From a virus: a stretch of DNA of 64,000 bases. Position numbers and translations under genes: made by a program. Positions 6,349 to 49,007 of this stretch are shown here, in pieces. The notes below the pieces were generated by a model. The model saw only the letters and a list, made by a program, of their open reading frames with translations, was not told the origin of the DNA and searched no databases. The stretch lies in the IMG/VR virus record IMGVR_UViG_3300046703_000247, positions 1 through 64,000 of that record; one strand, given 5' to 3'. The number at the start of each line of letters is the position of its first letter. Position 1 is the first letter of the stretch.

Positions 6349-6349
6349 G

Positions 6350-15328: not shown

Positions 15329-15651
15329 TGCACCCGTTCTGGCATCCGGTTTTCGGTAGACTCCGTCGAACCTCACTGACACCGGCAGTTCCTCCGCCGC
15401 CCCCGGAGTTGCATCTCGGGTTGATGTTTTGGCACCCGATCCTTGGCAGGCTGCGGGCCTGGTTCGGCATCGGAACGCCCAGCGGCCGCCCGGCGGTGTT
15501 TCTTGGCACTATCAACGGGCAGGCAATCTTCCTCGGTGGGATGGATGGGGCCTGTTCACTTGGTTCTATCAATGCGGTGGGGCTCGACCTGGGAACGATG
15601 GAGGCGGGGGCGGTCCGGTTGGGGAAGATTCCGATCAGACGCGGCTCTTAA
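15325..15651 (+). CDS. hypothetical protein
   Basis: ATGA overlap with previous gene; FWHP(V/I)(F/L)GRLR repeated twice. Confidence 0.55.
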   Translation: MMHPFWHPVFGRLRRTSLTPAVPPPPPELHLGLMFWHPILGRLRAWFGIGTPSGRPAVFLGTINGQAIFLGGMDGACSLGSINAVGLDLGTMEAGAVRLGKIPIRRGS

Positions 15652-15997
15652 CTTCTATGCCGTACCTTTGGGAGACGGAACCCTGCGGTTCCTTCCCCCA
15701 AACCCGCTTCTTCCCTGATCCGAAAGGGAAAGGCTGGAGAAGTTCGAGTGTGGAACTCATGGCCCGATTGTGGAACTCCTGCAAACGAACCACGGAGTTG
15801 GGTAAGGCGGGCCGGGGCCAGAGTTCAATGAGACCGTTTGGCTGCATCCAGTACATCTGTGGTGCCAACGCTCCGTACGGGAAATATGGCGGAATGGCGC
15901 CCATCCTTCCCTTAGCTGGTGCGGCCACCTTCGACACCGGCACAGCCGGCGCGGCGGCCATCCCCAGCAGCATGCGGAGCAGCCCGCGGCGGTTCAT
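15635..15997 (-). CDS. twin-arginine mini-protein with adaptor-like fragment
   Basis: MNRRGLL + hydrophobic stretch; PQMYWMQPNGLIELWPRP resembles adaptor P...Y....LWP.P. Confidence 0.7.
   Translation of the reverse strand: MNRRGLLRMLLGMAAAPAVPVSKVAAPAKGRMGAIPPYFPYGALAPQMYWMQPNGLIELWPRPALPNSVVRLQEFHNRAMSSTLELLQPFPFGSGKKRVWGKEPQGSVSQRYGIEVKSRV
15659..15716 (-). repeat. hairpin repeat copy R4
   Basis: rev-comp AGGGAAGAAGCGGGTTTGGGGGAAGGAACC-GCAG-GGTTCCGTCTCCCAAAGG. Confidence 0.9.
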
Positions 15998-16281
15998 GAT
16001 GTTCCTTCGGCACGCTGGCTGAACCGCGCGGGTTTGCGAACCTCCAAGGTATCCCCGATTTTCGGCCCTTTGAAGGCAAACTGGTTCTCATAATCGCGGT
16101 TTACCATTTTGGCGAATGCGAGATGCTTTTTAAGAATGGCCAGCATCTCCCTCGTGATTTCCGACTGAGTCAATAGTCGGTTTCCGGGCCACGGCAGCCG
16201 GGCAGCCAGAGTGTTGCGCAGTGGAAACGTGGCGGAGGCCGCAGCCCCCAAGAGAGCGCCGATGAACCCGCGCCGATTCAT
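15994..16281 (-). CDS. twin-arginine mini-protein fused to P22-type coat protein N-terminus
   Basis: MNRRGFIGALLG; NRLLT..EITREML.IL...L.F...VNRDY...F...G.KIGDTL.VRKP; TAGAAT just upstream of ATG. Confidence 0.8.
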   Translation of the reverse strand: MNRRGFIGALLGAAASATFPLRNTLAARLPWPGNRLLTQSEITREMLAILKKHLAFAKMVNRDYENQFAFKGPKIGDTLEVRKPARFSQRAEGTS

Positions 16282-16293
16282 GTCCCCATTCTA

Positions 16294-16350
16294 AGGGAAG
16301 AAAAGGTCCTAGGAAAAGAAACCGTAGGTTTCGTTTCCTGGAGCCCCGGC
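16294..16350 (+). repeat. hairpin repeat copy R5
   Basis: AGGGAAGAAAAGGTCCTAGGAAAAGAAACC-GTA-GGTTTCGTTTCCTGGAGCCCCGGC. Confidence 0.9.
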
Positions 16351-16370
16351 CAATAAAGGGAATTTGAGCC

Positions 16371-16664
16371 ATGCCCATGAACCCCAACGTATTGGAACTG
16401 GATCCCAACGACGAGCGCGACTGCTATTGGGATGCTGAGAACGACACCATCGCCACCGGCGGCGCCGCCTGGAGTTCCGTCGCCATCTCGCCCGTGGGAA
16501 CCCCCGCCCTGACCATCGGAGTGCCGGTGAACACCACGACGCGCACCATGGCCAACGTCAAGGGCATCGCCCTGGGGTCTCTGCACGAGCTGATCTGTAA
16601 GGTAACGCTCACCTCGGGGCAGAAGATCGAGCGCTCGCGCTACGTGAAAGGCGTGAACCAGTGA
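16371..16664 (+). CDS. conserved small phage structural protein
   Basis: LDPNDERDCYWD...C.VT.TSGQ..ERS motif. Confidence 0.65.
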   Translation: MPMNPNVLELDPNDERDCYWDAENDTIATGGAAWSSVAISPVGTPALTIGVPVNTTTRTMANVKGIALGSLHELICKVTLTSGQKIERSRYVKGVNQ

Positions 16665-17278
16665 GCTACGAGATCCCCTACTCGGATCTGGACCTAATTC
16701 TGAAGACGCTCAAGGAGAGCACCGACCCGGACGTCATCCGCGCGCGCAACCAGATTGAGGCTCAGAGCCTTATCGAGGATCTGAAGAAGTACGACCCGCC
16801 CGCGGAATTCCGCCTGCACATCGCAAAGATCACCCACTATCTGAAGCACTGGTTCAGCCTGGATGACTGGGCCGGCTACATCCAGTTCGAAGCTCTCCAG
16901 GAGACCGGCGACCCGCACACGGAAACCAGGGTGACCATCCGCACGGACCGGGTCTACCTGAACTACACCCTGAGAATTGGAATCCCGATTCTCGAAAACT
17001 GGCGGCGCGGCGAGTGGTTCACCATCGGGCATAGTCTGTGCCACGAGTTCTGCCACATCCTCACCGATCCGATCATTGCTCTGGCTCTCTCGGACGCTGC
17101 TCCCTCGCAGGTTCCCATGATGCAGGAGATCAACGAGCGCCAGGTCCAGCGCTTCGCGGTGATCATCACCGAGGCTCTTCCCGACAACTGGTACACCCCC
17201 GAGAAGTTGACCGACTGGTTCCAACGCCATCCGGAAATCGAACTGCCCAAAGCAGAAGCCACACCCGCCGCAGCCTGA
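16661..17278 (+). CDS. HExxH zinc metallopeptidase-like protein
   Basis: LCHEFCHIL plus downstream E (INERQV). Confidence 0.6.
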   Translation: MSYEIPYSDLDLILKTLKESTDPDVIRARNQIEAQSLIEDLKKYDPPAEFRLHIAKITHYLKHWFSLDDWAGYIQFEALQETGDPHTETRVTIRTDRVYLNYTLRIGIPILENWRRGEWFTIGHSLCHEFCHILTDPIIALALSDAAPSQVPMMQEINERQVQRFAVIITEALPDNWYTPEKLTDWFQRHPEIELPKAEATPAAA

Positions 17279-17284
17279 ACCCCC

Positions 17285-18979
17285 ATGCTCGTCCCCCTCT
17301 TCCAAGGCGGCAGCTACACCTCCGACTCCCCCAACTGGGCGGCGGACCGCACCGTCAACCTCTTCACCGAAGTAGGCGAGTCGGGCGCCACCAAATCCGC
17401 GATGCGGCTGCGGGGCTCGCCCGGGCTGCGCCTCTTCTGTGAGCTGCCGACCGCTCCGGTCCGGGGTATTTGGGTCAACGAATCGCGCCTGTTTGCAGCC
17501 GGCGGCTCACGTAGCTATGAGGTCTTTCCCAACGCTGTCCCCCACGACCAGGGCGAGATCGGCGACGACGCCACGCATACGCCGGTCCAGATGTTTCCGA
17601 ACGGCGGGCAGTTGTTCATCGTTTCGGCTGGACAAGGCTACATCGACACCGGCACCGAGATCATCGCCTGCGAGCTCGCGACCCTGACCGGAACACTATC
17701 GAGCCCCGGAACGATCATCGTTACCCGCCGCGGCCGGGAGGGCGGTCGAACCAACTACCCGCCCACGACAAATGTCGATCCTCTGAACCCCTGGTTCACT
17801 GTCGATTGGACTTCGGGCGATACTTTCGACCCGGCCATGGTGGGCCGGGACATCACCCTGAATGGGGCGACCTTCGAGGTTCTCAGCGTTCGAGGAGACG
17901 GAAAGCAGATGAGGATCCGGGGCAGCGCCGGTGTCCTGGCAAACCTCACCTGGACCTGTGTTCTGCCCGTGTTGGCCAAGACCGGGGCCTTTCTCGACGG
18001 CTATTTCATCGCGGCTCCACCGGATGATAAGCGCTTCAGAATCAGTTCCCTCTATGACGGGCTGACCTGGGATCCGCTGGATTACGGGGTGAAACAGGGC
18101 TATCCCGACAACATCTCCTCGATCCTGGCCGATCACGGCGACCTCTGGCTGCTTGGCACCGAAACCGCCGAGATCTGGCGGAACACGGGGAATGCCGACT
18201 TCCCCTATGAGAAGGATCTGGGGGCCTTCATCCACCAGGGCTGTGCGGCCACCTGGAGCGTGGTACGGCTGAACAACGGCGTGGCCTGGCTGGGAGGGGA
18301 CGCTCGAGGAAGAGTCACCGCCTGGCGCGCCCAGGGCTACATTCCGGTACGGATTTCGACCCACGGCGTGGAGCAAGCTTGGCGCAACTATGCTGAGGTC
18401 TCGGACGCCATCGGCTTCGTCTACCGCCTGGACGGCCACGAATTCTGGCAACTCCAGTTCCCCACCGCGAAAGCCACCTGGGTCTACGATGCGCTCACTG
18501 GCCTGTGGCACGAGCGGGATAGTTGGGACCCGGTCGAAGCCGAATACGGGATGCACCGGGCCCGCTGCTACGGCTATGTGTGGGGCAAACACTTCGTGGG
18601 GGACTACGCCTCGGGCAAGATCTACGAGATGTCGGCGAGCTTCTATGACGACGACGGGACGGCGATTCGAAGATTGCGGCAGGCGCCACATCTCTCCGAC
18701 GAGCAACTCTGGCACTTCTTCTACCGGCTGCAGCTCGACATGGAGACCGGCTCGGTCGTGGCAGATCCGCCCATGACGCTCGAATGGTCCGACGACGGCG
18801 GCCACACCTGGAAGACGCCGCTGACAATTACCGCCGGGGCGCTGAACGACTTCACCAAGCGGGTGATCTGGCGCCGGCTCGGAAAATCCAGAGACCGGGT
18901 CTGGCGGATCACCTCAACAGCAGCCATTCCGCACACCTGGATCAATGCCATTATCGATGTCACTAAAGGAACGGCCTGA
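17285..18979 (+). CDS. tail hub / packaged-DNA stabilization protein, P22 gp10-like
   Basis: VNLF.E...L.GSPGL; FLDGYFI; TWVYD..TG.WHER; LEWSDDGGHTW; WRRLG..RDRVWRI. Confidence 0.85.
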   Translation: MLVPLFQGGSYTSDSPNWAADRTVNLFTEVGESGATKSAMRLRGSPGLRLFCELPTAPVRGIWVNESRLFAAGGSRSYEVFPNAVPHDQGEIGDDATHTPVQMFPNGGQLFIVSAGQGYIDTGTEIIACELATLTGTLSSPGTIIVTRRGREGGRTNYPPTTNVDPLNPWFTVDWTSGDTFDPAMVGRDITLNGATFEVLSVRGDGKQMRIRGSAGVLANLTWTCVLPVLAKTGAFLDGYFIAAPPDDKRFRISSLYDGLTWDPLDYGVKQGYPDNISSILADHGDLWLLGTETAEIWRNTGNADFPYEKDLGAFIHQGCAATWSVVRLNNGVAWLGGDARGRVTAWRAQGYIPVRISTHGVEQAWRNYAEVSDAIGFVYRLDGHEFWQLQFPTAKATWVYDALTGLWHERDSWDPVEAEYGMHRARCYGYVWGKHFVGDYASGKIYEMSASFYDDDGTAIRRLRQAPHLSDEQLWHFFYRLQLDMETGSVVADPPMTLEWSDDGGHTWKTPLTITAGALNDFTKRVIWRRLGKSRDRVWRITSTAAIPHTWINAIIDVTKGTA

Positions 18980-19001
18980 GTTTGCGCGAACGTTCTATTT
19001 T

Positions 19002-19060
19002 CTGAAGCCTGAAGGGAGCGAAACCCTGCGGTTTCTCTCCCTTCCAACCCACTCTTCCCT
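19002..19060 (-). repeat. hairpin repeat copy R6
   Basis: rev-comp AGGGAAGAGTGGGTTGGAAGGGAGAGAAACC-GCAG-GGTTTCGCTCCCTTCAGGCT. Confidence 0.9.
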
Positions 19061-19129
19061 GATGTTAAAGACAATCGAGCATACAGAGGCGCGCTTGCCG
19101 CAGCCGCCGCTCCCCTCCAAGGAGACGAA

Positions 19130-19462
19130 GTGAAAATCAGGTACCGTATCGCGACCGCGGCAGTGGGCGTGGCGCTCCTGGTTGTGTTGTCCGCCCTGCC
19201 GATAGGGGGCGCACGGACCTACAAGGTGCTCGTGAAGTGGCAGGATAACGCGAATCCGTCCGGAACGACGTACCTGTTGTATCGAGCCGTGGGTGCTTGC
19301 AGCGCGACTTCGCAATTCTCGCAAATTGCGGCGACAACTAAAAAGAGCTATACGGATTTGCTCAAGCCCGGAGACTACTGCTTCCGCTGCACGGCGATAG
19401 CGAAGGGGCTTCCCGAATCCGCGCCCTCGAATCTGGTCACCGTCAGAAAGGCGGACTTCTAG
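19130..19462 (+). CDS. secreted fibronectin type III-like protein
   Basis: RBS AAGGAG, GTG start; signal peptide; W......Y.LYR...YTD....Y...A....ES.PSN. Confidence 0.7.
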   Translation: MKIRYRIATAAVGVALLVVLSALPIGGARTYKVLVKWQDNANPSGTTYLLYRAVGACSATSQFSQIAATTKKSYTDLLKPGDYCFRCTAIAKGLPESAPSNLVTVRKADF

Positions 19463-20055
19463 TGAAATCCTTACTGCTATTCTTTGTTGCGATCCCCGCG
19501 TTCGCACAGGTTCACAGCGCCACACTCTCCTGGAATCACGCAGACCCAGCGGCGACGTTCTCGATTTATAAGGCATCTGGACCGTGTTCGAGCAGTCCGG
19601 CGTTCGCAAAAATTGCCAGTGGCATCACCGTCAAAACGTATCAGGATTTGGCCGTGGCGACCGGAGCCTACGCCTACGTCGCCACCGCAACGGTCGCGGG
19701 CGCGGAGAGCGTCTATTCCAATTGCGCGGATGCCCTTGTCCCGGCGTTTGCGCCGACTGGGCTCTCTGCCGGACCTGTTGCCAATGGGGCCGTGCCGCTG
19801 ACGTGGGCGGATCCGCAGGTTGGCGCGACGTGGAGCGTCTATCGTTCCCCCAGCGCCTGCAACCAGACGCCGACGTGGGCCAAGCTCGTTGGCGGCCTGA
19901 CGACGCGAGCATACAGCGATTCTACCGTTCCGATGGGCAGTTCCTGCTATGGGGTCACCGCCACATTGAACGGAGTAGAGTCTCCCATATCCAGCAGCGT
20001 GACCGTAACCCGGTCCGCTGCGGCCCCTACCGGGTTGACGGTGCAGGTACAGTGA
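19462..20055 (+). CDS. secreted protein with two FN3-like domains
   Basis: Signal peptide; two LSW/LTW...YK/YR...Y.D...Y.(A/V)TA...ES repeats. Confidence 0.75.
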   Translation: MKSLLLFFVAIPAFAQVHSATLSWNHADPAATFSIYKASGPCSSSPAFAKIASGITVKTYQDLAVATGAYAYVATATVAGAESVYSNCADALVPAFAPTGLSAGPVANGAVPLTWADPQVGATWSVYRSPSACNQTPTWAKLVGGLTTRAYSDSTVPMGSSCYGVTATLNGVESPISSSVTVTRSAAAPTGLTVQVQ

Positions 20056-20067
20056 TTTCCCACCACC

Positions 20068-20448
20068 ATGTCTAGAGCCATGGAATACGCGGGCTTGGGG
20101 ACGATGCAATTGCGGCCCTTTAAGCCCGGCCAGTTGCTTCACCGTCGCGTTCAGCAGCCGCCGCGCGAACTCCCACTGCTGACCACGCGGCAGGCGCAGG
20201 TTGTCGCGCTGGTGCGGGAGGGTATCCACTCCACAAAGGAGATTGCGTTTCGCATGGGGTGGACGCCTCAAAGCGCGAAAGTGATGCTGGTGCTGCTCTA
20301 TCGGAGACTGCAAGCGAATGGCTACGGCGTGGACAACTTGACCTCGCTAGCCATCTGGGCCTTCGCTCCAGAGGTTCTCCGCAGGGAAGAAAAGGGTTCT
20401 AGGAAAAAGGAACCGTCCGGTTCCGTTTCCCTGGAGCTTCAACCGTAA
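20068..20448 (+). CDS. LuxR-type HTH regulator
   Basis: LTTRQAQVVALVREG..STKEIA.RMG.T..S.K.....LYRRL; C-terminus runs into R7. Confidence 0.7.
   Translation: MSRAMEYAGLGTMQLRPFKPGQLLHRRVQQPPRELPLLTTRQAQVVALVREGIHSTKEIAFRMGWTPQSAKVMLVLLYRRLQANGYGVDNLTSLAIWAFAPEVLRREEKGSRKKEPSGSVSLELQP
20383..20444 (+). repeat. hairpin repeat copy R7
   Basis: AGGGAAGAAAAGGGTTCTAGGAAAAAGGAACC-GTCC-GGTTCCGTTTCCCTGGAGCT. Confidence 0.9.
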
Positions 20449-20472
20449 AGCAATTCTCGACAGTTTAGGCCC

Positions 20473-21924: not shown

Positions 21925-22343
21925 GCAAGACCGTCTTTAATGTGTCCGCCCTAACCAGACCCGATCCCACGGCCAGCGATGCGGAGAAAGCTACACACTT
22001 TCTCGCGCAACTGCGCGTCCGAACTTTGGAAAGCCTGCAAACCCTCCACGTCGTTGCAATACCCGATGCCGCCTACTGCCTGGATCTATCCCTACAGCGG
22101 CTGGACCTCGATGCGTTAAACCGCGCGTGCATCGACAAGCTGCTGTCCATGCCGCGCGACGAGGTGCTTCCCGCCGCCGCCGATTCCTTCTGGTCGCAGA
22201 CCTACCCGCACGCCCACATCCGATGTCTCAAGCGCTACGTGATTCGGGTGCAGGGCAGGGGGGGGACTTGGGTAGGGGTGATGGTCATGGACGGCGCAGC
22301 GATGGGCTTTGACGGGAAAGGATTTCCCCATGGCCTGGATTAA
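21921..22343 (+). CDS. hypothetical protein
   Basis: ATGA overlap in operon. Confidence 0.55.
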   Translation: MSKTVFNVSALTRPDPTASDAEKATHFLAQLRVRTLESLQTLHVVAIPDAAYCLDLSLQRLDLDALNRACIDKLLSMPRDEVLPAAADSFWSQTYPHAHIRCLKRYVIRVQGRGGTWVGVMVMDGAAMGFDGKGFPHGLD

Positions 22344-23580: not shown

Positions 23581-23596
23581 TCCGAACGGCGCTGCC

Positions 23597-24064: not shown

Positions 24065-24065
24065 C

Positions 24066-24926
24066 ATGCCGCCAATCGTAATTGCAGGAGCGATTTCAGC
24101 CGGAGCTTCTATCGGTGGGGCTCTCATTAACAAGAGTTCCGCCAATAAGGCGGCCGAGATTCAGGCCGAAGCCGCACGCAAGGCAGACGAGGTCGCCAAC
24201 AAGCAGGCGGGCTACGTGGCCGACACGGGTTACGGCCTGGCCACCAACCTGCGCGACGCGGGCACCGCCAACGAGCAGACGCTGCAGCAGGTATCGGGAA
24301 CCGGCGAGAAAGCGCTGTCCCCGTACCTCGAGGCGGGCACGTATGGGGTGACGGCGCTCAAGGACCTCGGTCAGAACTTGAACAAGCCGGTCACAATGGC
24401 CGATTTACAACTCGACCCCGGCTTCCAGTTTCGGATGGAGGAAGGGCAGAAGGCGCTGGAGCGCTCGGCCTCAGCTCGAGGAGGTCTGCTCGGCGGCGGA
24501 ACCCTGAAATCCCTGGCGCGCTATTCGCAAGGCGTAGCTTCGGACGAATACCAGAAGGCCTTCGACCGGTACCAGACCGACAATGCCGCGCGCTTCTCAA
24601 GGCTGTCCACGCTCACAGGTGTCGGGCAGAACGCCACCGGCAGCCTGCTGGATCTGAGCAAGTGGTACGGGACCAGTTCCACCGGCAACCGCACGGATAC
24701 CGAATCGAGAGCTGCCAGCCTGGCCATGGGCGGAGTGACCGGGGCGGCCGATCTGCGCATGAAGGGGGCTGAGGCCGGCCTACAAGGAGCGAACGCATCG
24801 GCAGCCGGCACCGTGGCATCGGGCAACGCCTGGGCGCAAGGATTGAGCGGGGCGGGCTCGAGCATCTCGAACGCCATCCTGCTCTCTCAGATGCTGAAGC
24901 CGCAGACGCAGCCAATCAATATCTAA
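24066..24926 (+). CDS. DNA ejection protein, P22 gp7-like
   Basis: L.PY..AG..G; DPGFQFR..EG.KALERSASARGGLLGG.TLK.L.RY.QG.AS.EY. Confidence 0.8.
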   Translation: MPPIVIAGAISAGASIGGALINKSSANKAAEIQAEAARKADEVANKQAGYVADTGYGLATNLRDAGTANEQTLQQVSGTGEKALSPYLEAGTYGVTALKDLGQNLNKPVTMADLQLDPGFQFRMEEGQKALERSASARGGLLGGGTLKSLARYSQGVASDEYQKAFDRYQTDNAARFSRLSTLTGVGQNATGSLLDLSKWYGTSSTGNRTDTESRAASLAMGGVTGAADLRMKGAEAGLQGANASAAGTVASGNAWAQGLSGAGSSISNAILLSQMLKPQTQPINI

Positions 24927-24927
24927 T

Positions 24928-24982
24928 TGAAGCCACCAGGGGCGAGACCCGGCGGTCTCTCCCCCGGTACCCCCTCGTCCCT
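24928..24982 (-). repeat. hairpin repeat copy R8
   Basis: rev-comp AGGGACGAGGGGGTACCGGGGGAGAGACC-GCCG-GGTCTCGCCCCTGGTGGCT. Confidence 0.85.
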
Positions 24983-24998
24983 GATCTGCTCCGTCCGA

Positions 24999-25054: not shown

Positions 25055-25072
25055 TTGAAAGAGGCAATCTTT

Positions 25073-26377: not shown

Positions 26378-26387
26378 GCGATTAGAG

Positions 26388-26442
26388 GCCGAAGCCTCGG
26401 GGACGAAACCCGGCGGTTTCTTCCCCAAACCCCTTCATCCCT
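26388..26442 (-). repeat. hairpin repeat copy R10
   Basis: rev-comp AGGGATGAAGGGGTTTGGGGAAGAAACC-GCCG-GGTTTCGTCCCCGAGGCTTCGGC. Confidence 0.9.
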
Positions 26443-26449
26443 GATCGCA

Positions 26450-26758
26450 ATGCCCAAGCTCAAAGGCGTCAGCAACTCCGAGGGCCAGCGTCTGGGCTAC
26501 ATGATGGAGTGCCCCGGCTGCGGCCAGTGGCACGTCATCTACACCGAACAAGCCAACGACCTCAAGGCCCGCTGGACCTTCGACGGAAACATGGAGAAGC
26601 CCACCTTCCACCCTTCCATTCTGTGCCGCTGGACCGAAGGCAAGGAGCAGGTGAAGAAGGTCTGTCACTTCTTTGTGCGCGCGGGCAAGATCGAGTTCTG
26701 CGGCGACTCGACACACGCGCTGGCGGGTAAGACCGTAGATCTACCGGACTGGAGTTAA
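26450..26758 (+). CDS. DUF6527-like Zn-binding protein
   Basis: CPGC...H...W.FDGN.EKPTF.PSIL...CH.FVR.G.I.FC.DSTH.LAG.TV.LP. Confidence 0.75.
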   Translation: MPKLKGVSNSEGQRLGYMMECPGCGQWHVIYTEQANDLKARWTFDGNMEKPTFHPSILCRWTEGKEQVKKVCHFFVRAGKIEFCGDSTHALAGKTVDLPDWS

Positions 26759-26764
26759 CTGCTA

Positions 26765-27088
26765 ATGCCAATCCCAGAAATGCTTTGGTGGCTGATCGTC
26801 GCGCACGCCCTCTGCGACTTCCCGTTGCAGGGCGACTTCCTGGCGCGCGGGAAGAACCACCGCGCTCCGATTGCCGGGGTGCCCTGGATTATCTGTCTCT
26901 TCTCCCACGCGCTGATTCACGGCGGAGCGGTGGCGCTCGTGACCGGCAGCGTCTTACTCGGAGCGGCCGAGACTGCCGCACACGCCTGGATTGACTGGGC
27001 CAAGTGCGACGGCCGCTACGGGTTCGCGGTGGACCAAGGGCTGCATCTGCTGGTCAAGGTCGGGTGGGTGATTTGGCTGACGCGCTAG
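26765..27088 (+). CDS. DUF3307 family membrane protein
   Basis: AHALCDFPLQ...H..IH...H..ID..K...DQ.LH. Confidence 0.8.
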   Translation: MPIPEMLWWLIVAHALCDFPLQGDFLARGKNHRAPIAGVPWIICLFSHALIHGGAVALVTGSVLLGAAETAAHAWIDWAKCDGRYGFAVDQGLHLLVKVGWVIWLTR

Positions 27089-27091
27089 AAC

Positions 27092-27406
27092 TCAGCCGTG
27101 CCGGTGCCGGCGAGCGCGGCGAGGAATCCATGGCGGTTCAGGGCTTCTTTTCATGGACACTTTCTTTCCCAATACAGGCTGGAAGCAGAAGGACGATTCA
27201 ACCACTTCCGTGATTCGGAACTGTGTCGGGTCCTCAAAGAACGTAACAATGTCCCCAACATTGAGAAATGCCAGACCATTGACCTGGCAAGCAGTTCCCG
27301 GCGGAATACATCCGAGAGACGGGATGCCGGCTGCCGGTGCGGGCTGCGGCAGCAGTGGCGCGGCAATCGCGCCCGCCAGCGCTCCGATGAACCCGCGTCG
27401 ATTCAT
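27092..27406 (-). CDS. twin-arginine mini-protein with possible coat-insertion-domain-like fragment
   Basis: Internal ATG 27406 gives MNRRGFIGALAGAIAAP; LNVGDIVTF...QFRIT motif; TGGCAGAAT 6 nt upstream. Confidence 0.7.
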   Translation of the reverse strand: MNRRGFIGALAGAIAAPLLPQPAPAAGIPSLGCIPPGTACQVNGLAFLNVGDIVTFFEDPTQFRITEVVESSFCFQPVLGKKVSMKRSPEPPWIPRRARRHRHG

Positions 27407-27425
27407 AAACCCATTCTGCCACCGA

Positions 27426-27481
27426 AGGGAAAAGAAAGGTTCGGAAAGAGAAACCTCGGTTTCGTTTTCCGAGGCCCCCAG
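27426..27481 (+). repeat. hairpin repeat copy R11
   Basis: AGGGAAAAGAAAGGTTCGGAAAGAGAAACC-TC-GGTTTCGTTTTCCGAGGCC, close to R3. Confidence 0.9.
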
Positions 27482-27496
27482 TAAAGGAACCGTGCC

Positions 27497-41000: not shown

Positions 41001-44000
41001 TGGCGCGGCATCAAGCAGCGCAATGTGCTCCTGGCCCACTGGGTAGGAACCGGCAAAACCTTCGAAGGCATCACCATCGGCATGGAGCTGAAGCGGCTGG
41101 GTCTCATCCAGCGGCCGATGTACGTGGTTCCGAACGCCACCCTGGGCGGTTGGCAGTTGCAGTTCAACCAACTCTACCCGCAGAAGCGCGTCATTGTTTT
41201 CAGCGAGAAGGACCTGGAGAAGGAAAACCGGCGGGCCACTATCGCGCGCATCGCGGGCGGCGAGTGGGACGCGGTTGTCATGCCCGAGTCCAGTTTCCGG
41301 TTCATCCGCACCGGCGACGAGATCTTCAACCAGCATTTTCAGCGTCTCCAGGAAGAATTGGACACCTCCATCCAAGAGGCTGAGGGCGCCGGGATGGACA
41401 CCCGGATGATTAAGCGCATGGAAAAGATGCGCGACAAGCTGCTCACGGCCCTGCAGGATAAGCGCAACGCGGAGCGGCAGGATCAGACCATCATCTGGGA
41501 GCAGTTGGGGATCGATTGGCTGTTCGTGGACGAATCCCACCACTACCGCAAGTTGGGGTTCTCAACCAAACAGCAGAACATCGCCGGCATCGATGTGAAC
41601 GGCAACCAGATGACGTTCGACCTGCTCATGAAGATGCGGCACGTCCAGACGACCGGGCGCGGAGTGGTCTTCGCCACGGGTACACCGATTGTCAACACCA
41701 TTGGGGAAATGTACTCTCTGATGCGCTACCTGATTGAGCCGGAAATGCAGGCGCGCGGCATCGGCCGCTTCGATGAATGGTCGGCCGACTACGCCCGGAC
41801 GGTCCCCGTGTTCGAACCGAAGGTGGAGGGTGGCGGCTACCGGATGAAGGACCGCTTCGCCCGCATCGTCAACATCCCCGAGTTGGCGAACCTGTTCCGC
41901 TCCTTCGCCGATGTGGTCACCAATGACATGGTAGACCTAAAGATCCCGGGTTTGGCGGGAGGGGAACGCAAGAGCATCCTGACGGACTTGAGCGACGAGC
42001 AGACTCAATATCTGGAAGAAGATCTGCGACCCCGCGGGGCCGCTATTCGCCACAACCCCCGGGATGCCATGCCGGACAACATGCTGGCTGTCTATACCGA
42101 CGCCGGCAAGATGGCATTGGACATCCGGACGGTAATGCCGCACGCCAAAGAGGACCCCGGCAGCCGGCTGAACAAAGCCGCCGAAATCATCTTCCGCGAC
42201 TGGCAGGACAGCGCGAAGACGAAGGGCGTACAGGCCATATTCTGCGACTGGGGCAAGCCCAACAGCGCGCGCCCCCTTGCGGATCGCGGGCAGTTCTCGG
42301 TGTACGACGAGCTGATTCGAAAGCTGATTAAAAAAGGCATCCCGCGCGAGCAGATTGCCACTATCTATCAGGCGAAAGGGAAGGACCAGCGGGCCCGGCT
42401 CTTCCAGCAGGTGAACGAGGGGACCATCCGGATCATCCTCGGTTCCACGAAGAAGCTCGGTGAAGGCGTAAACATTCAGGAGCGCCTATATTCCCTTCAT
42501 CACCTGGACCTGCCGCACACGCCCTCGGAACTAGACCAGCGCGAAGGCCGCGCCCTGCGCCAAGGGAACACCAACCCCGACGTGCGGGTGTACTACTACA
42601 TGACCCGGGGCTCACTCGACGAAATGAAGTTCGCCAACGTCCTGCGTAAGGCGAAGTTCATCCTGGCCATGATGCAGGGCAAGGCCACGGTACGCGAGGC
42701 CGACGACGTGGGCGGTATGATCCCCTCTCTTGAGATGTTCCAGGCGGCCACCTCGGGGGATCCGCGCGTGCTGAGGAAGATGGAGGTTGACGCCGAAGTA
42801 GCGCGCCTCGAGGCCATTCACTACGCCTGGCGGAATCAGCAATGGGACGAGCGGCGCCAGTTGGCGGACCTGCCTGGCAGAATCAGTCGCTTTGAAACTA
42901 CCATCTCCAATTCCCGAAGTGACATCGCCCTGCGGGACGCGCACCTGCCGGGGGTGTGGTCGGTCCGCGGGCAGACCTATGAAGGCAAAACTCCGGAAGC
43001 GGCGAAGGCACTTGCCGAGTACTCCAACAGCAGGCGAAGGGAGCATGACGCGGATCTGAAAACGGAGATGGCCAAGGCTATAGCGGAAGGCGGTGAAGAC
43101 GCCAAGAAGGTCCGCGCGCTACAGAATCGAGCCTTTACAGAAGCGGGGAAGCGCTTTCCTCCCGAGATCATCGCTGAATACGCCGGTTTCAAGATCCGGT
43201 TTGATCCCATTGATGGGGCAATGACCATCGTTGGCGAAGGGTCCGCATACGGGATGGAGCGGCAGGACACCGCGACAGGCACGCTCGCGAGCGCAGCCTA
43301 CTTCATTCACCACCATTTTGAAAAGGCCATCACCAGTGCCGAAGAGGACATTGCCCGCGCCAGGCGCGACGAGGAACAGTTGCAGATCTCTGTCGGAAAG
43401 TCCTGGCCCTATCAGAAGCAGTTCGACAACCTGGTTGCCGAGCAGGAGACCCTGACTCACGATTTGGGCGGCGATCACGGAGACCCCGGCGCCGCTCTGC
43501 TCGAGGATGGGGAGGAAATAGAAGACAAGCGGGTGGAAGCCGAGGAGACGGCAGAGTCTGGAGACGAGGCCCAGCCGGAGCAGCCGCACCCAACCACACC
43601 CAATCCACCTACGCCGGGCCGGCGGCCGGGAGCAGCTACGCAATCCCGCCGCTCCAGCCAGGCCGGCGCGGCCAGCCTCGATCTGCTCACCCTGGGAGCG
43701 CCCAAGTTCATCCAAGAGGATGTCGCCCCAGCCCTCGGCAGGGTCGCCCAGAACTTTGTGGCGGTCAAAAACGAGATCTTCACGATTATCGCCCCGGCCG
43801 CTCGCGGGCCCGCCGCCAAACAAACTGCCCTCTCCGTGCGCTACCGGGCGGCCGAGTTGGCCCAGAAGACGGACCGTGCCCTGGCCGCCCTCAAGGAAAC
43901 CCGCCGCTACTTCGACTCGCTGCCCGAGTGGAACCGGTTGGAGTTCATGGACCGCATCGAAAACGGCCAGCAGCAGATCTATCCACAGGAGGACGCGATT

Positions 44001-46415: not shown

Positions 46416-46451
46416 AACATCCTGCAACCCACTGAAACGCTCTGCAACACC

Positions 46452-46868
46452 ATGCTCCCCAGCCGAAAGCTGATCGCCTTCTTATCGCTCTACGAGACCC
46501 TGGACCCCCAGAAGTTGTTGCAGGTCACCGCCGGCCTGAATCACCTGGTCACAGCCCCCTTATCGCGCCACCAGTTCGACGCCTTAGTCTCATTGACGTG
46601 CAGCATCGGGGTCTCGGACCTGCGCACTTCGAACCTGCTTTACCAGATTAATCTGTCGAATTGGGAAGCCGCAGCAAAGGAGTGGAAGCGCTGGCACTGG
46701 TGGCAAGGGGTACCCCACCTAGCCGACGACCGGCGCGCGGCGGAACTGAAGATCTGGGAGCAAGGCTGGCCCGTCAGTAAATCGAAACGAAAGGAACGAC
46801 CATGCCAAAAGACCCGACCTACCACAAGGCCGCAAGCGAAACGCGGTTGCGGATCCGCCACGCAATAA
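46452..46868 (+). CDS. truncated or degenerate GH24 lysozyme (R21/RrrD-like)
   Basis: L..HQFDALVSL...IG....S.LL..IN......AA.E..RW...RR.AE; catalytic D/T loop missing. Confidence 0.65.
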   Translation: MLPSRKLIAFLSLYETLDPQKLLQVTAGLNHLVTAPLSRHQFDALVSLTCSIGVSDLRTSNLLYQINLSNWEAAAKEWKRWHWWQGVPHLADDRRAAELKIWEQGWPVSKSKRKERPCQKTRPTTRPQAKRGCGSATQ

Positions 46869-46986
46869 AGTGCATTTTCAAGGCCGCCCCGCATTCCTGT
46901 TGGGTGGTTGTGGACATCGAGAAAAAGATCAACCAGTTCATCCTGGGGATGGACGAGCGGCAGGACAAGCGGAAGGGTGGATTGTG

Positions 46987-47202
46987 ATGGCACTGATCGA
47001 CGTTTTGGAAGCGAAGGACATCGACCAACTCGGCCAAGTGCTCCTGGGCGCGCTCGACCGCGGCAAGGAAATCGTTCAGGAACTCCGCGACGAATCCGAA
47101 ATCGTAATCGAGATCCCCGGCCCCATCCGAATTCACTTCAAACGTAAGGAGAAATTTCAATGTCCCTTAAAGCCTGGCTCTTTGGACTCCTCTCCGGTGT
47201 GA
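46987..47202 (+). CDS. hypothetical protein
   Basis: MALIDVLEAKDIDQLG..., coupled in operon. Confidence 0.5.
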   Translation: MALIDVLEAKDIDQLGQVLLGALDRGKEIVQELRDESEIVIEIPGPIRIHFKRKEKFQCPLKPGSLDSSPV

Positions 47203-47447
47203 TTGCCTCGGCCGCAAACGCTGGATCGGGGCTGCTCGGAGCGATGGTCCTGGGTCCCGAGTTGCTGCATGATCGAAACTTCTGGAAGGTGATGTGTGCG
47301 ACTGCGCTATTCGCCGGCCTGAAGACCGCCCTGGCGTGGCTGAAACAGAGCCCTCTGCCGGCCGTTTTACTCACTACGGAGACGGTCACCACCGTCAAGA
47401 CCACCAGCACGGACCCGGCGCCAGCCGTGCCAGATCCCAAGCAGTAA
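47160..47447 (+). CDS. holin-like membrane protein
   Basis: RBS AAGGAG; two hydrophobic segments; LKQSPLP motif; near lysozyme gene. Confidence 0.6.
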   Translation: MSLKAWLFGLLSGVIASAANAGSGLLGAMVLGPELLHDRNFWKVMCATALFAGLKTALAWLKQSPLPAVLLTTETVTTVKTTSTDPAPAVPDPKQ

Positions 47448-47506
47448 ACGCCCGACGCCCGCGGACTCCGCGCGGCCCAGACCGAATCTTTTGAAAGGCA
47501 CTTCCT

Positions 47507-47758
47507 ATGTCCATCGCCAATTGCAACTTCACCCCTCAGAGCTGTAAAGAACTCATCAACGTGCGGATCGCACAGGAAGGCTCATTCGAGCGGCTCGATA
47601 GCCTCGAACGCTGGCAGGAAAATCAGAACGGCCACATCAGCCGGATTGACAACAAGCTCGATAAATTCTTCTGGTTCTGGTTGAGTTTACTGGCAACCTC
47701 GGCCGGCACCCTGCTGGTCCTGATCCTCACCCAGACTGGTGTGCTTGGCCATCGTTAG
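47507..47758 (+). CDS. coiled coil + C-terminal TM protein (XhlA/holin-like)
   Basis: RL..LE...QNG.I.RI..KLD followed by a TM helix. Confidence 0.6.
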   Translation: MSIANCNFTPQSCKELINVRIAQEGSFERLDSLERWQENQNGHISRIDNKLDKFFWFWLSLLATSAGTLLVLILTQTGVLGHR

Positions 47759-47766
47759 CCCTCCCA

Positions 47767-48135
47767 ATGGCTCTCCGCCTGGTCCGTCAACCGCCCGGGA
47801 CTTCGCTGTGTGGCCAGTGCTGTGTGGCCATGGCAGCCGAAGTGTGCCTCGACAGGGCCATTGCGGTTGTCAATCATCGCGGGCCCGCTGGAACCACCAC
47901 GCGGGAAGTGATTGCGGCCCTTCGGAAGTTGGGGTTGAAGTGCGCCGATCGCTGCCGGCCGCTCTCCCGAATCAGACCGAGCTACCCGAGGCGGGCCATC
48001 CTCGCACTGCGACAGAACGGGCGAGCGCGCTACCACTGGGTGTATTACGAGGATGGAGTCTTCTACGATCCGGAAGATGAATGGCCGCGCTATGACGGGT
48101 GGCGAATTACAAGTTACCTAGAAGTCTTCGGTTGA
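47767..48135 (+). CDS. C39-like cysteine peptidase
   Basis: VRQ.....CGQCCVAM; HWV; YDP. Confidence 0.7.
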   Translation: MALRLVRQPPGTSLCGQCCVAMAAEVCLDRAIAVVNHRGPAGTTTREVIAALRKLGLKCADRCRPLSRIRPSYPRRAILALRQNGRARYHWVYYEDGVFYDPEDEWPRYDGWRITSYLEVFG

Positions 48136-48157
48136 ATCTGCATCATCCTGCCTTTTT

Positions 48158-48217
48158 GCTGCTACTCCAGGGGAACGAAACCTCACGGTTTCTTTCCCCT
48201 CGCCCCCTTTCATCCCT
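48158..48217 (-). repeat. hairpin repeat copy R20
   Basis: rev-comp AGGGATGAAAGGGGGCGAGGGGAAAGAAACC-GTGA-GGTTTCGTTCCCCTGGAGTAGC. Confidence 0.85.
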
Positions 48218-48234
48218 TCGGCTAGAATCGAAGC

Positions 48235-48660
48235 ATGAACCGCCGAGGGTTCCTCTTCACAGCCTTGGGAGCACCCGCTGTTGTTGTTGGCGCGACCGCG
48301 CCCACCACGCGCTTACAACCTCCCGGCCTGCCTGTAGATCCTCAGTTTGATTTTGTCGACGGGGCACATTACTGTGCTGGGCTGTACTACGGCCGCCGGG
48401 TTGCCTTCGCTTCGCCAAATTATCCCAACCGCCTCTGGTTTTCCCGTGCCGATCCCCCGCGCCGCTTTCACGACCCCTACGGTATTGGCGACTGGGTCGA
48501 CGTCGGCGATTCATGGGACCGGATCGTTTCAGTCTATGTTTGGCACGCGGACCTGATTATTCGCAAGCTCAACAGTGAATGGCAGTTCTGCGGCGACCTA
48601 GACTGGGGCATTTTCTATTTTCTGGGTGATCCCCAACGGAGAGGAGTTCTGAGAGTATGA
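48235..48660 (+). CDS. twin-arginine mini-protein with nozzle/tail-hub beta-propeller-like fragment
   Basis: MNRRGFLF; YYGRRVAFASPNYPNRLWFSR...DRIVSV...HADLII; TAGAAT 6 nt upstream of ATG. Confidence 0.75.
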   Translation: MNRRGFLFTALGAPAVVVGATAPTTRLQPPGLPVDPQFDFVDGAHYCAGLYYGRRVAFASPNYPNRLWFSRADPPRRFHDPYGIGDWVDVGDSWDRIVSVYVWHADLIIRKLNSEWQFCGDLDWGIFYFLGDPQRRGVLRV

Positions 48661-49007
48661 ACCGCCGCGGCTTCCTGGCTATGCTGGCTGGCGCGGTGCT
48701 CGACCCCGAGCGCTTGCTCTGGGTGCCGGGGAAGAAGCTCATCTCTATTCCGGCAGAATCCGCGCCCTGGCCTTGGCGGCACGGACCGTTTCTCGTAACC
48801 GCGCACATGGAAGGTTCCAGCGACGTGGCCGCCATTATGGAACGCCTACTCAATCACCGTTGGACGATGGACCCCGTGTGGCGACAGCACGCGCAAGACA
48901 TGATTGACCGCGACATGCAACGGATTCTTCTGGGCGAGGTGCAGCAGACCATCGGGTTCTTCCGCACTTCCGAGAAACCTACTCCTTCGCTGCAGATGTC
49001 GGCCTGA
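48657..49007 (+). CDS. twin-arginine mini-protein
   Basis: MNRRGFLAMLAGAVLDPERLLWVPG; ATGA-coupled. Confidence 0.75.
   Translation: MNRRGFLAMLAGAVLDPERLLWVPGKKLISIPAESAPWPWRHGPFLVTAHMEGSSDVAAIMERLLNHRWTMDPVWRQHAQDMIDRDMQRILLGEVQQTIGFFRTSEKPTPSLQMSA

What the first reader, a model, noticed from the sequence alone, without database searches (positions are those of the whole stretch)
15635..49007. Candidate new system: repeat-bracketed twin-arginine mini-genes carrying fragments of virion proteins
Seen: five ORFs start MNRRG(F/L) plus a hydrophobic stretch (15635-15997-, 15994-16281-, 27092-27406-, 48235-48660+, 48657-49007+). All lie between inverted pairs of the hairpin repeat. The one nearest the repeat in each cassette has a -10-like box about 6-7 nt before ATG and no clear RBS. 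Their bodies resemble pieces of different structural proteins: coat N-terminus, gp4-type adaptor, nozzle/hub propeller, and more weakly a coat insertion domain. Known: RRxFL is the Tat motif, and Tat can co-export bound partners. Inference: a modular 'Tat tag + virion fragment' library. It could poison assembly of superinfecting phages, drag their subunits to the membrane, or act as decoys for host sensors of structural proteins.
Basis: partly seen in the sequence, partly recalled or inferred. Interest (0 to 1): 0.92.

Follow-up and report, generated by a model that had tools for sequence, protein, structure and literature searches.

The report
Export-tagged virion-fragment mini-genes in phage
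An uncultured peat-soil phage carries five small genes that each begin with an export-type (twin-arginine) signal; at least two, probably three, continue with a copied piece of a virus-particle protein, a widespread gene design that I found in no paper and whose purpose is still unknown.

Summary
All five ORFs start ATG-MNRRG(F/L). All lie between inward-facing copies of the phage's hairpin repeat. The three repeat-proximal ones have (T/C)AGAAT exactly 6 nt before the ATG and no Shine-Dalgarno sequence.

Cargo by ORF:
- m2 is a copy of the coat N-arm.
- m4 is two blades of a podophage nozzle/hub-type propeller whose full-length parent is absent from this genome record.
- m3 is probably a shortened coat piece.
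- m5 carries a conserved helical hairpin of unknown origin.
- m1 is an orphan. No window ORF is shown to carry an adaptor piece.

m5 belongs to a family of at least 1505 small proteins, none in Pfam, PHROGs or GenBank phages. Its near-invariant leader is MNRRGF, a hydrophobic stretch, then LDPE..LWVPGKKLISIP. It is held by protein-level selection and followed by variable cargo. Of 115 cargos, 28 are coat pieces and 3 are adaptor pieces.

The hairpin repeat is peculiar to this phage and does not define the family.

This scan found the same family before, in at least eight other genomes.

Export, binding and function are untested. My best guess is membrane or Tat-targeted interference with virion assembly, at about 0.3.

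The parts
15635..15997 (-). m1: 120-aa ORF, MNRRGLL leader. Second gene of cassette A. Its ATG overlaps the m2 stop (ATGA) and an AAGGA lies upstream. Orphan cargo. Its 3' end runs through the left hairpin copy.
   Evidence: GC3 0.71; no homologue of 66-210 aa among 5.8 billion proteins; adaptor only E 0.22 / 0.02
15994..16281 (-). m2: 95-aa ORF. Short Tat-like leader with a degenerate box, then the coat N-arm (coat positions 3-58). It stops 7 residues after the VRKPARF strand.
27092..27406 (-). m3: 104-aa ORF. Short Tat-like leader plus 'VGDIVTF...FRITEV' cargo, shared with family members that carry the full leader. Probably a shortened coat beta-segment.
48235..48660 (+). m4: 141-aa ORF. Short Tat-like leader plus about 95 aa of all-beta cargo, homologous to an internal stretch of podophage nozzle/hub-like virion proteins.
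48657..49007 (+). m5: 116-aa ORF. It has the full family leader MNRRGFLAMLAGAVLDPERLLWVPGKKLISIP plus a conserved helical-hairpin cargo ('LNHRW..DP..R'). Its ATG overlaps the m4 stop and GGAGAGGAG lies upstream.
16288..16293 (-). TAGAAT, a -10-like box 6 nt before the m2 ATG
27413..27418 (-). CAGAAT, a -10-like box 6 nt before the m3 ATG
48223..48228 (+). TAGAAT, a -10-like box 6 nt before the m4 ATG
15660..15717 (+). Left hairpin-repeat copy of cassette A (hairpin, then pyrimidine tract). It lies inside the 3' end of m1.
16293..16353 (-). Right hairpin-repeat copy of cassette A, directly upstream of m2
26388..26450 (+). Left hairpin-repeat copy of cassette B, directly upstream of the DUF6527 gene
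27425..27485 (-). Right hairpin-repeat copy of cassette B, directly upstream of m3
48160..48222 (+). Left hairpin-repeat copy of cassette C, directly upstream of m4
49277..49330 (-). Right hairpin-repeat copy of cassette C, upstream of a 95-aa minus-strand ORF that converges on m5
26450..27088 (+). Cassette-B companions: a DUF6527 gene (26450-26758) and a DUF3307 membrane-protein gene (26765-27088), convergent with m3
48979..49266 (-). Cassette-C companion: a 95-aa ORF with no family match. It overlaps the m5 3' end by about 28 nt.

Best explanation
The five ORFs are real accessory genes of a P22-like podophage that probably infects Acidobacteriota.

They form three small transcription units set into, or right after, the late region, each inside one of the phage's hairpin-bounded cassettes. 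The first gene of each unit (m2, m3, m4) is probably read from a leaderless mRNA that starts at the A of the ATG, 6-7 nt after a -10-like box. The second genes (m1, m5) are coupled to the first by an ATGA overlap and an upstream Shine-Dalgarno-like stretch.

Each product is a pre-protein with a twin-arginine-type signal peptide. The cargo behind the signal is an old, still-constrained copy of a piece of a virion protein. Internal deletions kept the order of the pieces.

Proposed mechanism: the leader brings the protein to the Tat receptor or inner membrane. The cargo keeps the binding surface of the piece it copies:
- the coat N-arm, for scaffold or neighbouring coat;
- the adaptor ends, for portal or ring neighbours;
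- the nozzle blades, for neighbouring blades.

The protein would then capture unassembled virion subunits and either hold them at the membrane or carry them out as Tat 'hitchhikers'. This would interfere with particle assembly, most plausibly that of related co-infecting or superinfecting phages.

SHOWN: the genes exist, the leader is conserved at protein level, the cargo origins of m2 and m4, the family's modular design, and the start-site architecture.

INFERRED: transcription starts, export, binding, target and benefit.
For: GENES AND STARTS
- establish the ORFs and the shared start architecture.
- Four of nine distinct relatives also carry a TAnnnT box 6-7 nt before the start, read by eye: L004 TATACT-6-ATG, L009 TATACT-6-GTG, L010 TACAAT-6-ATG, L011 TAGGAT-7-ATG.

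PROTEIN-LEVEL SELECTION ON THE LEADER
- 18 invariant residues in 10 loci that are otherwise 33-48% identical.
- 2-7 different codons per invariant position outside the single-codon Trp, including TCN/AGT for Ser.

TAT-LIKE FEATURES
- RR in 116 of 116 box-bearing family members.
- F two residues after RR in 112 of 120. The uncharged stretch has a median of 15 residues, too short for a membrane helix.
- AxA lies just before (T/V/A)L-DPE in the commonest leader forms.
- One relative passes TIGR01409, 17.1 bits against a cut-off of 16.7.

CARGO ORIGIN
- m2.
- m4.
- Coat pieces in 28 of 115 cargos at E<0.01, against 0 in 10 shuffled sets and 0 in the reversed set.
- Adaptor pieces in 3 of 115 cargos, E 1e-13 to 6e-7.
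- Composites are colinear with the parent: P0010, P0081, P0002, P0105, P0087.
- N-arm cargos keep the residues conserved in real coats. In most of the 14 aligned sequences the protein ends within about 15 residues after the VRxPxRF strand.

CARGO KEPT OVER LONG TIMES
- m4 and P0122 are 40% identical across leader and blade.
- Eight m5-type cargos share conserved positions.

PRECEDENTS FROM PAPERS (listing and start of abstract only)
- Tat co-export of signal-less partners: PMC4273604, PMC10924467.
- A small satellite protein that competes with the scaffold on the coat: PMC5644958.
Against: - No evidence of transcription, translation, export or binding.
- Curated Tat HMM cut-offs are not met by any of the five window ORFs. 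m5's uncharged stretch is only 11 residues.
- Export would remove the fragments from the cytoplasm, where assembly takes place. Lone fragments may fail Tat quality control (general knowledge).
- m1 and m5 have no detectable virion parent.
- Three of four N-arm fragments score best against their own phage's coat. They could therefore poison their own phage unless they are made at another time.
- No integrase was found in the 86%-complete record, so lysogeny is not shown.
- The model does not explain the invariant LDPE..LWVPGKKLISIP box, nor why exactly one full-leader gene occurs in each of the five genomes read in full.
Confidence: 0.3

Rival explanations
1. The proteins are exported and act in the periplasm or envelope. 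Possible roles are blocking the ejection or tail machinery of incoming phages (classical superinfection exclusion) or binding a host envelope protein through the invariant LWVPGKKLISIP box. The virion pieces would be re-used only as small, stable binding modules.
For: - The signal-peptide features and AxA site place the mature N-terminus at the invariant box.
- m4's parent is a nozzle/hub-type protein, a part that does meet the envelope.
- The cassettes also carry a membrane protein, DUF3307.
- The genes have their own -10-like boxes and sit like morons, on either strand and at varying places in relatives.
Against: - Most recognisable cargo is coat, which never meets the envelope.
- The cargo keeps the coat's own conserved residues rather than drifting to a new function.
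Confidence: 0.25
2. The proteins are decoys or sponges for host immune sensors that recognise conserved shapes of coat and tail proteins. The leader would tether or expel the bound sensor.
For: - The cargos are the most conserved signature segments of virion proteins.
- The same leader carries many different pieces.
- Sensing of capsid proteins by defence systems is established. This is recalled, not read here.
Against: - A copy of a trigger would be expected to fire the sensor rather than blunt it.
- An earlier check in this scan lowered this reading.
Confidence: 0.12
3. The proteins serve the phage's own morphogenesis or timing. Examples are membrane-tethered nucleation, buffering of free scaffold or coat, or coupling of assembly state to lysis.
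For: - Three of four N-arm fragments are closest to their own coat.
- There is exactly one full-leader gene in each of the five genomes read in full.
- m4 and m5 follow the lysis region; the endolysin is at 46452-46868.
Against: - The cargo of the single full-leader gene differs between related phages. It is coat N-arm, coat middle, coat C-terminus, m3-type or m5-type. That is odd for a fixed housekeeping role.
- The family is absent from all 50,697 GenBank phage records, including the P22-like ones.
- m4's parent is absent from this genome record.
Confidence: 0.1
4. The cargos are non-functional debris. A portable 5' module (hairpin, -10 box, ATG and signal-coding stretch) recombines into or next to virion genes and leaves junk fusions that are decaying.
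For: - The 5' regions of m2, m3 and m4 align from the hairpin into the leader codons, mean column identity 74% (D14).
- m1 is an orphan whose 3' end is repeat sequence.
- GC3 of m2, m3 and m4 is low, 0.61-0.66.
- The 48-50 kb bin has the lowest GC of the 32 bins, 0.582.
Against: - The leader is held by protein-level selection across at least 1505 proteins.
- Cargos are conserved between distant phages.
- N-arm cargos tend to end shortly after the same strand.
- Relatives lack the hairpin module yet have the genes.
Confidence: 0.08

Closest known systems
Twin-arginine (Tat) signal peptides (Pfam PF10518, NCBIfam TIGR01409) and Tat 'hitchhiker' co-export (PMC4273604, PMC10924467; listing and start of abstract seen)
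   Same: N-terminal (N/S)RRxF(L/F), a moderately hydrophobic uncharged stretch of about 15 residues, and a small-x-small site before the mature part. One partner carrying the signal could take a bound partner along.
   Different: - The curated HMM cut-offs are not met by the window's ORFs.
- There is no Lys after FL.
- The cargo is a 50-110-aa protein fragment, not a cofactor enzyme.
- An invariant 17-residue box follows the signal and has no counterpart in known Tat substrates.
- Export is untested.
The unnamed 'Tat-type leader plus capsid piece' family noted earlier in this scan (e1-5899520, e1-3266402, e1-3295203 and others)
   Same: m5 is a full member: leader HMM E 9e-24 over all 36 positions. 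m2 aligns with its N-arm subfamily.
   Different: - m1-m4 carry only the signal part of the leader.
- m4's cargo is a tail-nozzle piece, not a capsid piece.
- In this phage the genes sit on a hairpin-promoter module.
P22-type major coat protein (phrog_283) and its N-arm. The N-arm as the scaffold-binding site in P22 is recalled, not read here.
   Same: m2 residues 37-92 align with coat positions 3-58, conserved residues included.
   Different: Only about 14% of the coat fold is present, with no P, A or I domain, so m2 cannot form a shell. It also carries a signal peptide.
Podophage nozzle/hub beta-propeller proteins (phrog_3287 family; solved tails of Pa223, cyanophage A4, PhiM1, P22 gp10 and T7 gp12 appear among the Foldseek rows)
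   Same: m4 residues 31-127 match an internal stretch of these proteins by sequence, E to 1.2e-8. The model is all-beta and is ranked next to these chains: 13 of the 29 rows ranked 1-30.
   Different: - Only about two blades are present.
- No Foldseek match reaches E 0.001.
- No full-length parent is in this genome record.
- The phage's own gp10-like hub relates only at hhalign probability 6.5%.
Satellite capsid-redirecting proteins such as SaPI1 CpmB (PMC5644958; listing and start of abstract seen)
   Same: A small accessory protein that works by competing at a coat-scaffold contact. This is a functional analogy for the proposed mechanism.
   Different: - No sequence relation was tested or is expected.
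- CpmB is not a copy of a coat piece and has no signal peptide.
- It belongs to a satellite, not to the phage itself.
PeSL mobile promoter/stem-loop cassettes of T4-type phages (PMC2839356, PMC4122927; listing and start of abstract seen)
   Same: A repeated stem-loop regulatory element flanks small variable accessory genes set between conserved genes.
   Different: - The sequence and the phage type are different.
- Here copies face inward in pairs, and eight are translated inside a giant gene.
- Shuffling between related genomes was not shown.

Membership tests
Tat signal peptide (PF10518 / TIGR01409) | Consecutive arginines near the N-terminus in an (S/T/N)RRxF(L) context | tested here: met
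   All five ORFs start MNRRG(F/L). RR is present in 116 of 116 box-bearing family members. F lies two residues after RR in 112 of 120 listed members.
Tat signal peptide (PF10518 / TIGR01409) | Uncharged, moderately hydrophobic h-region of about 12-20 residues | tested here: met
   Family median is 15 residues with a mean Kyte-Doolittle value of 1.82. m2 has 17, m4 has 21, m3 is longer, m5 has only 11, and m1 is interrupted by one Arg.
Tat signal peptide (PF10518 / TIGR01409) | Score at or above the curated HMM cut-off | tested here: not met
   PF10518 gives 14, 14.4, 16.7 and 12 bits and none for m5, against a cut-off of 22.7. TIGR01409 gives 11.1 bits for m3 only, against 16.7. One relative, P0012, passes at 17.1.
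Tat signal peptide (PF10518 / TIGR01409) | Tat-dependent export of the protein | not testable with these tools
   This needs reporter fusions in tat-plus and tat-minus cells and an RR-to-KK control.
Unnamed full-leader family (consensus MNRRGFLGALAGAAAAAALDPERLLWVPGKKLISIP plus variable cargo) | Complete 36-position leader including the LDPE..LWVPGKKLISIP box | tested here: met
   Met for m5 only: E 9.1e-24 over positions 1-36, with invariant residues shared with 9 other loci. m1-m4 match only positions 1-16 to 1-19, E 1e-8 to 3e-5 in a 5-sequence search. For those four the feature is not met.
Unnamed full-leader family | Small size (about 50-160 aa) with variable cargo after the box | tested here: met
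   1505 hits at E<=0.001 among 8000 scored candidates of 36-254 aa. The 120 listed are 50-160 aa. None turned up among the 8000 scored candidates of 255-2000 aa, which is weak evidence.
P22-type major coat protein (phrog_283) | Full HK97-type fold of about 385-420 residues | tested here: not met
   m2 covers profile positions 2-56 of 385, or 3-58 of 414 in the local HMM. The phage's true coat gene is at genome 80935-82134.
Podophage nozzle/hub virion protein (phrog_3287-type) | Full-length multi-blade propeller protein of 700 aa or more | tested here: not met
   m4 matches only an internal stretch of about 80-100 residues in 28 longer proteins. The model has 8 strands.
PeSL-type mobile regulatory cassette | Repeated promoter plus stem-loop motif flanking variable genes, with exchange between related genomes | tested here: inconclusive
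   Flanking repeats are present. Only a -10-like box is found and no full sigma-70 match. Relatives lack the element, so exchange could not be examined.

The most novel reading that the evidence does not exclude
Phages of soil Acidobacteriota keep a natural set of 'inhibitory fragments'. These are interface pieces of coat, adaptor and nozzle proteins fused to a Tat-type leader. A fragment folds only when it captures its full-length partner. The partner is then held at the Tat translocon or expelled through it. This would be a capture-and-expel weapon against rival phages' virion assembly, and the invariant LWVPGKKLISIP box would be the handle for a conserved host or phage partner.
Probability: 0.2. 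Interest if true: 0.95.

Novelty: categorically new. Interest (0 to 1): 0.78.

Why it matters
If the reading holds, phages have evolved on their own the principle behind dominant-negative protein fragments and joined it to a protein-export signal. That would be a new class of inter-phage or phage-host weapon.

It would also assign a first function to at least 1505 unannotated small proteins from uncultured soil and peat phages. And it would supply short natural peptides that mark the critical assembly interfaces of P22-like capsids and tails.

Even if that function is wrong, several findings stand as concrete, testable open questions:
- a near-invariant 36-residue leader;
- one full-leader gene in each of the five genomes read in full;
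- cargo that changes from phage to phage but keeps being cut from virion proteins.

The window also adds three things to what this scan had already noted on other genomes. Tail (nozzle) and adaptor pieces occur as cargo beside capsid pieces. The start architecture looks leaderless. In this phage a portable 5' module may swap cargos.

Tried and rejected
LED NOWHERE
- tblastn of m4, m5, m1 and m3 against 50,697 GenBank phage records found no match at E<=0.1 (m4) or E<=1 (the other three).
- PHROGs and Pfam gave nothing for m1, m3 and m5 beyond the sub-threshold TAT_signal matches.
- The m5 model (pLDDT 68) against BFVD gave 0 matches at E<=0.001. The best E was 1.6, and three portal rows had probability <=0.15. 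I treat these as noise.
- The ESM Atlas look-up for m5 gave scores <=0.87 and structure TM <0.5, leads only.
- The profile of A1 against PDB sequences gave only a chance hit, E 1.4.
- Rfam found no family in the window.
- The A1 profile against proteins of 255-2000 aa found nothing, which is weak evidence that no full-length protein carries the leader.
- m1 has no homologue of 66-210 aa.
- hhalign of the m5-type cargo and of m1 against 14 conserved gene families of these phages gave nothing above 5% probability.

REJECTED
- The hairpin repeat as a defining part of the gene family.
- An adaptor origin for any window ORF.
- m2 and m1 as two halves of one broken coat gene. m1 has its own MNRRG start and no coat match.
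- The fourth TAGAAT-N6-ATG site, at 19924-, as a sixth gene. Its frame has GC2 0.76 above GC3 0.63.

NO VERDICT POSSIBLE
- Sequencing runs: one DNA run from a peat metagenome, possibly the source sample, and no RNA holder listed.

PAPERS
Six searches found no description of this gene design. I saw only listings and the starts of abstracts. I read no paper in full and opened no supplements.

Full report
WHERE THE WINDOW LIES. The window is bases 1-64000 of an 83,233-nt IMG/VR virus record with no end repeats; CheckV puts it at 86% complete. It is a P22-like podophage.
- PHROGs finds two gp4-type adaptor paralogues (4372-5055, 5548-6348), a gp10-type hub (17285-18979, E 4e-104) and an ejection protein (24066-24926).
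- It also has an exonuclease and DNA methyltransferases, a lysozyme at 46452-46868 and a 5786-codon ORF at 29055-46415.
- Terminase, portal, scaffold and coat lie beyond the window. The coat is at genome 80935-82134, phrog_283 E 3e-81.
- No tyrosine integrase was found.
- The only bacterial-genome hits to the family leader are MAG contigs labelled Bryobacteraceae and Pyrinomonadaceae (Acidobacteriota). They are 99.96-100% identical to viral loci I already held, so they may be phage contigs binned with those MAGs.
- The one sequencing run that holds the DNA is a peat metagenome.

THE OBSERVATION. All five ORFs exist as given and begin ATG-MNRRG(F/L).
- In all six frames of the whole record, NRRG[FLIVM] occurs seven times. 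Five follow an ATG, and these are the five ORFs.
- The codons differ among the five starts (AAC/AAT, CGC/CGG/CGA, GGG/GGC) while the residues stay the same. The conservation is therefore in the peptide.
- m2/m1 and m4/m5 overlap by ATGA. m1 and m5 have AAGGA and GGAGAGGAG upstream.
- Third-position GC in the ORF frame is 0.71, 0.66, 0.61, 0.61 and 0.75 for m1-m5. The long genes of the window lie between 0.69 and 0.90.
- The 48-50 kb bin has the lowest GC of the 32 bins, 0.582.

REPEAT AND START ARCHITECTURE. The hairpin repeat consists of a stem like GGAAAcGAAACC, a loop, GGTTTCtTTTCC, and then a pyrimidine tract like CCTTTTCTTCCCTT. It has some 30 copies in the record.
- The three cassettes are bounded by a '+' copy on the left and a '-' copy on the right, so both face inward: 15660-15717/16293-16353, 26388-26450/27425-27485 and 48160-48222/49277-49330.
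- Each inward-facing copy is followed by a gene start. Cassette B also holds DUF6527 and DUF3307 genes. Cassette C holds a 95-aa ORF convergent with m5.
- About ten such inward pairs exist, by my reading. Only three hold MNRRG genes, and two (24944/25038 and 79516/79612) are empty. The repeat is thus this phage's general cassette boundary.
- In m2, m3 and m4 the pyrimidine tract is followed by TAGAAT, CAGAAT and TAGAAT, then 6 nt, then ATG. The three 5' regions align from the hairpin into the leader codons at 74% mean column identity.
- [TC]AGAAT-N6-ATG occurs four times on both strands of the genome. Three are these sites. The fourth (19924-) heads a frame with non-coding composition.
- The three sites are copies of one module, so they are not three independent events.
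- The simple sigma-70 scan, run on the m2 and m4 regions, finds no -35/-10 pair there. The leaderless-transcript reading therefore rests on the -10-like box, its fixed distance and the missing Shine-Dalgarno sequence.
- Relatives support it. Among nine distinct loci with the family leader, four have TAnnnT 6-7 nt before the start: L004 TATACT, L009 TATACT before GTG, L010 TACAAT, L011 TAGGAT. I read these by eye. L006 is a weak case, and L008 and L012 have Shine-Dalgarno-like stretches instead.
- None of 12 related records or loci carries the hairpin-plus-pyrimidine element, against 19 such pairs in this genome. One relative has a different 78-nt repeat in front of its gene.

THE LEADER FAMILY. 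The first 32 residues of m5 recur in ten IMG/VR contigs. A degenerate DNA pattern for WVPGKKLISIP found the same ten.
- The ten proteins are 33-48% identical to m5 overall, yet R3, R4, D16, P17, E18 and L21-P32 are invariant.
- Outside the single-codon Trp, those invariant residues are written with 2-7 different codons per position, including TCN and AGT for Ser. This is purifying selection on a translated peptide.
- A profile search of 5.8 billion proteins gave 1505 hits at E<=0.001 among the 8000 candidates scored. The listed ones are 50-160 aa, and none has a Pfam domain or an informative name. No longer protein with the leader was found, which is weak evidence.
- Of the 120 listed, 116 have the box and all 116 have RR. 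The four without a regex match have one changed box residue each.
- The residue before RR is N in 98 of 120. F lies two residues after RR in 112. The uncharged run after RR has a median of 15 residues. A-x-A followed by (T/V/A)L-DPE is the commonest form.
- This is what a cleavable Tat-type signal looks like. The curated models, however, are not passed by the window's ORFs.
- A 36-position leader HMM matches m5 in full (E 9e-24) but m1-m4 only over positions 1-16 to 1-19. In the five phage records I read in full it finds exactly one full-leader gene each.

CARGO OF THE WINDOW'S GENES.
- m2. Residues 31-87 are 49% identical to the phage's own coat N-terminus (E 2.5e-15). They match coat HMM positions 3-58 (E 1.5e-17). 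The query matches 44 GenBank phage records at 38-54% identity in the 20 listed rows, which are annotated as coat, major capsid or major head proteins. hhalign against the coat family gives 98.6%.
- m4. Residues about 31-127 match an internal stretch of 28 proteins of 254-2153 aa, E 1.2e-8 to 1e-3. They also match one 132-aa protein (P0122) that likewise starts with an RR leader and is 40% identical. Five of seven proteins scanned belong to phrog_3287 'virion structural protein'; P0123 hits only phrog_511 and P0122 nothing. The AlphaFold model (16-row alignment; pLDDT 74, pTM 0.67; 78-94 over residues 40-135) has eight strands. Foldseek against the PDB gives nothing at E<=0.001. Even so, 13 of the 29 rows ranked 1-30 are podophage tail or nozzle chains, with Pa223 at 2.5e-3, P22 tail complex at rank 10 and T7 at rank 27. 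Twenty-six of 28 parent proteins hit only m4 among all ORFs of this phage and its relatives. The parent family relates to the gp10-like hub family only at 6.5% probability, E 0.0056, over 206 columns.
- m3. Its 'VGDIVTF...FRITEV' cargo recurs behind the full leader in other phages. The nine-member set aligns with the coat region around 'GDxITIAGV...FxVTA' at 49% probability, E 1.7e-4. This is suggestive only.
- m5. Seven other family members share its cargo. The model shows a helical hairpin at residues 55-91 with pLDDT 79-93. No parent was found.
- m1. It has no homologue at all. The adaptor family is its best but non-significant match.

CARGO ACROSS THE FAMILY. I built a coat HMM from four of these phages and searched 115 cargos with it.
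- It hits 28 at E<0.01 and 19 at E<0.001. It hits none in ten shuffled sets or in the reversed set.
- The hits fall on discrete coat regions: 13 on the N-arm, 5 around positions 73-125, 9 around 243-304, 1 at 339-361 and 3 at 371-413.
- Three proteins carry two non-adjacent pieces in coat order.
- Three cargos are adaptor pieces (E 1e-13 to 6e-7). Two of them are composites of the adaptor's N-terminal and C-terminal parts, again in order.
- In most of the 14 aligned N-arm cargos the protein ends within about 15 residues after the VRxPxRF strand, and the residues conserved in real coats are kept.
- Relatives also hold coat-piece ORFs without the leader.
- Three of four N-arm fragments score best against the coat of their own phage, two of them by small margins.

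WHAT IT MOST LIKELY IS. The data show a real, selected, very widespread gene design: an export-type leader joined to trimmed copies of virion-protein pieces. In this phage it sits on a portable hairpin/-10/ATG/leader module.
- Everything about function is inference.
- The retained pieces are those that touch other subunits in assembled particles. For the P22 N-arm and the scaffold this is recalled knowledge, not read here.
- I therefore favour binding of unassembled virion subunits at the membrane or Tat site, at about 0.3.
- The rivals are an envelope-side role, an immune decoy, a role in the phage's own assembly or timing, and debris.
- The invariant box and the one-full-leader-gene-per-genome rule are explained by none of them.

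COMPARISON AND NOVELTY. Nothing in Pfam, PHROGs, NCBIfam, Rfam, the PDB sequences or 50,697 GenBank phage records describes the family. Six full-text searches found no paper on it.
- The nearest things in print are Tat hitchhiker export, the satellite protein CpmB that competes with scaffold on the coat, and PeSL cassettes. For all of these I saw only listings and the starts of abstracts.
- This scan has met the family before in at least eight other genomes. One of those notes records a later check that lowered the export-decoy reading to 34/100.
- New here are the nozzle-blade cargo with a conserved small homologue, adaptor pieces as cargo, the leaderless-type starts shared with relatives, the single full-leader gene per genome, and the 5' module shared by three genes of one phage.

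Noticed in passing
window 29055-46415 (+): A single 5786-codon ORF. At least eight hairpin-repeat copies lie inside it, between about 31649 and 38074, in both orientations, without breaking the frame.
   Followed up: no
window 5170-5519: A fourth inward-facing repeat pair sits between the two adaptor paralogues. It holds an 89-codon ORF starting MNRCGDW at 5251 (+), possibly a decayed MNRRG leader. It also holds a 71-codon ORF at 5441 (-) with TACAAC-6 nt-ATG in register with the m3 start.
   Followed up: partly
G001 (L029) 6092-9683; window 4372-6348; G002, G003, G004: These phages carry 2-4 paralogous gp4-type adaptor genes. G001 has four in tandem.
   Followed up: no
G003 27732-28280 (+), G003 17802-18371 (+), G002 9942-10250 (+): Relatives hold further small ORFs made of coat pieces but without the twin-arginine leader. 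One has the N-arm split by an insert of about 115 aa. One carries coat positions 351-405.
   Followed up: partly
window 11051-11281 and 15109-15339; 9839-11000: A 231-nt direct repeat at 77% identity spans the ends of two tail-region genes. There is also a 7-copy 46-nt repeat inside the 605-aa ORF at 9453-11270.
   Followed up: no
L010 1079-1156 and 5910-5987: A different 78-nt repeat (88% identity) ends just before the full-leader gene of phage G003. This hints that each phage puts these genes behind its own repeated regulatory element.
   Followed up: no
window 16371-16664 (+): The 97-aa ORF next to cassette A has a sub-threshold match to Pfam PF23148, the podophage GP4 fiber-tail adaptor gp77 (E 3.9e-4, 21.3 bits against a cut-off of 27).
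   Followed up: no
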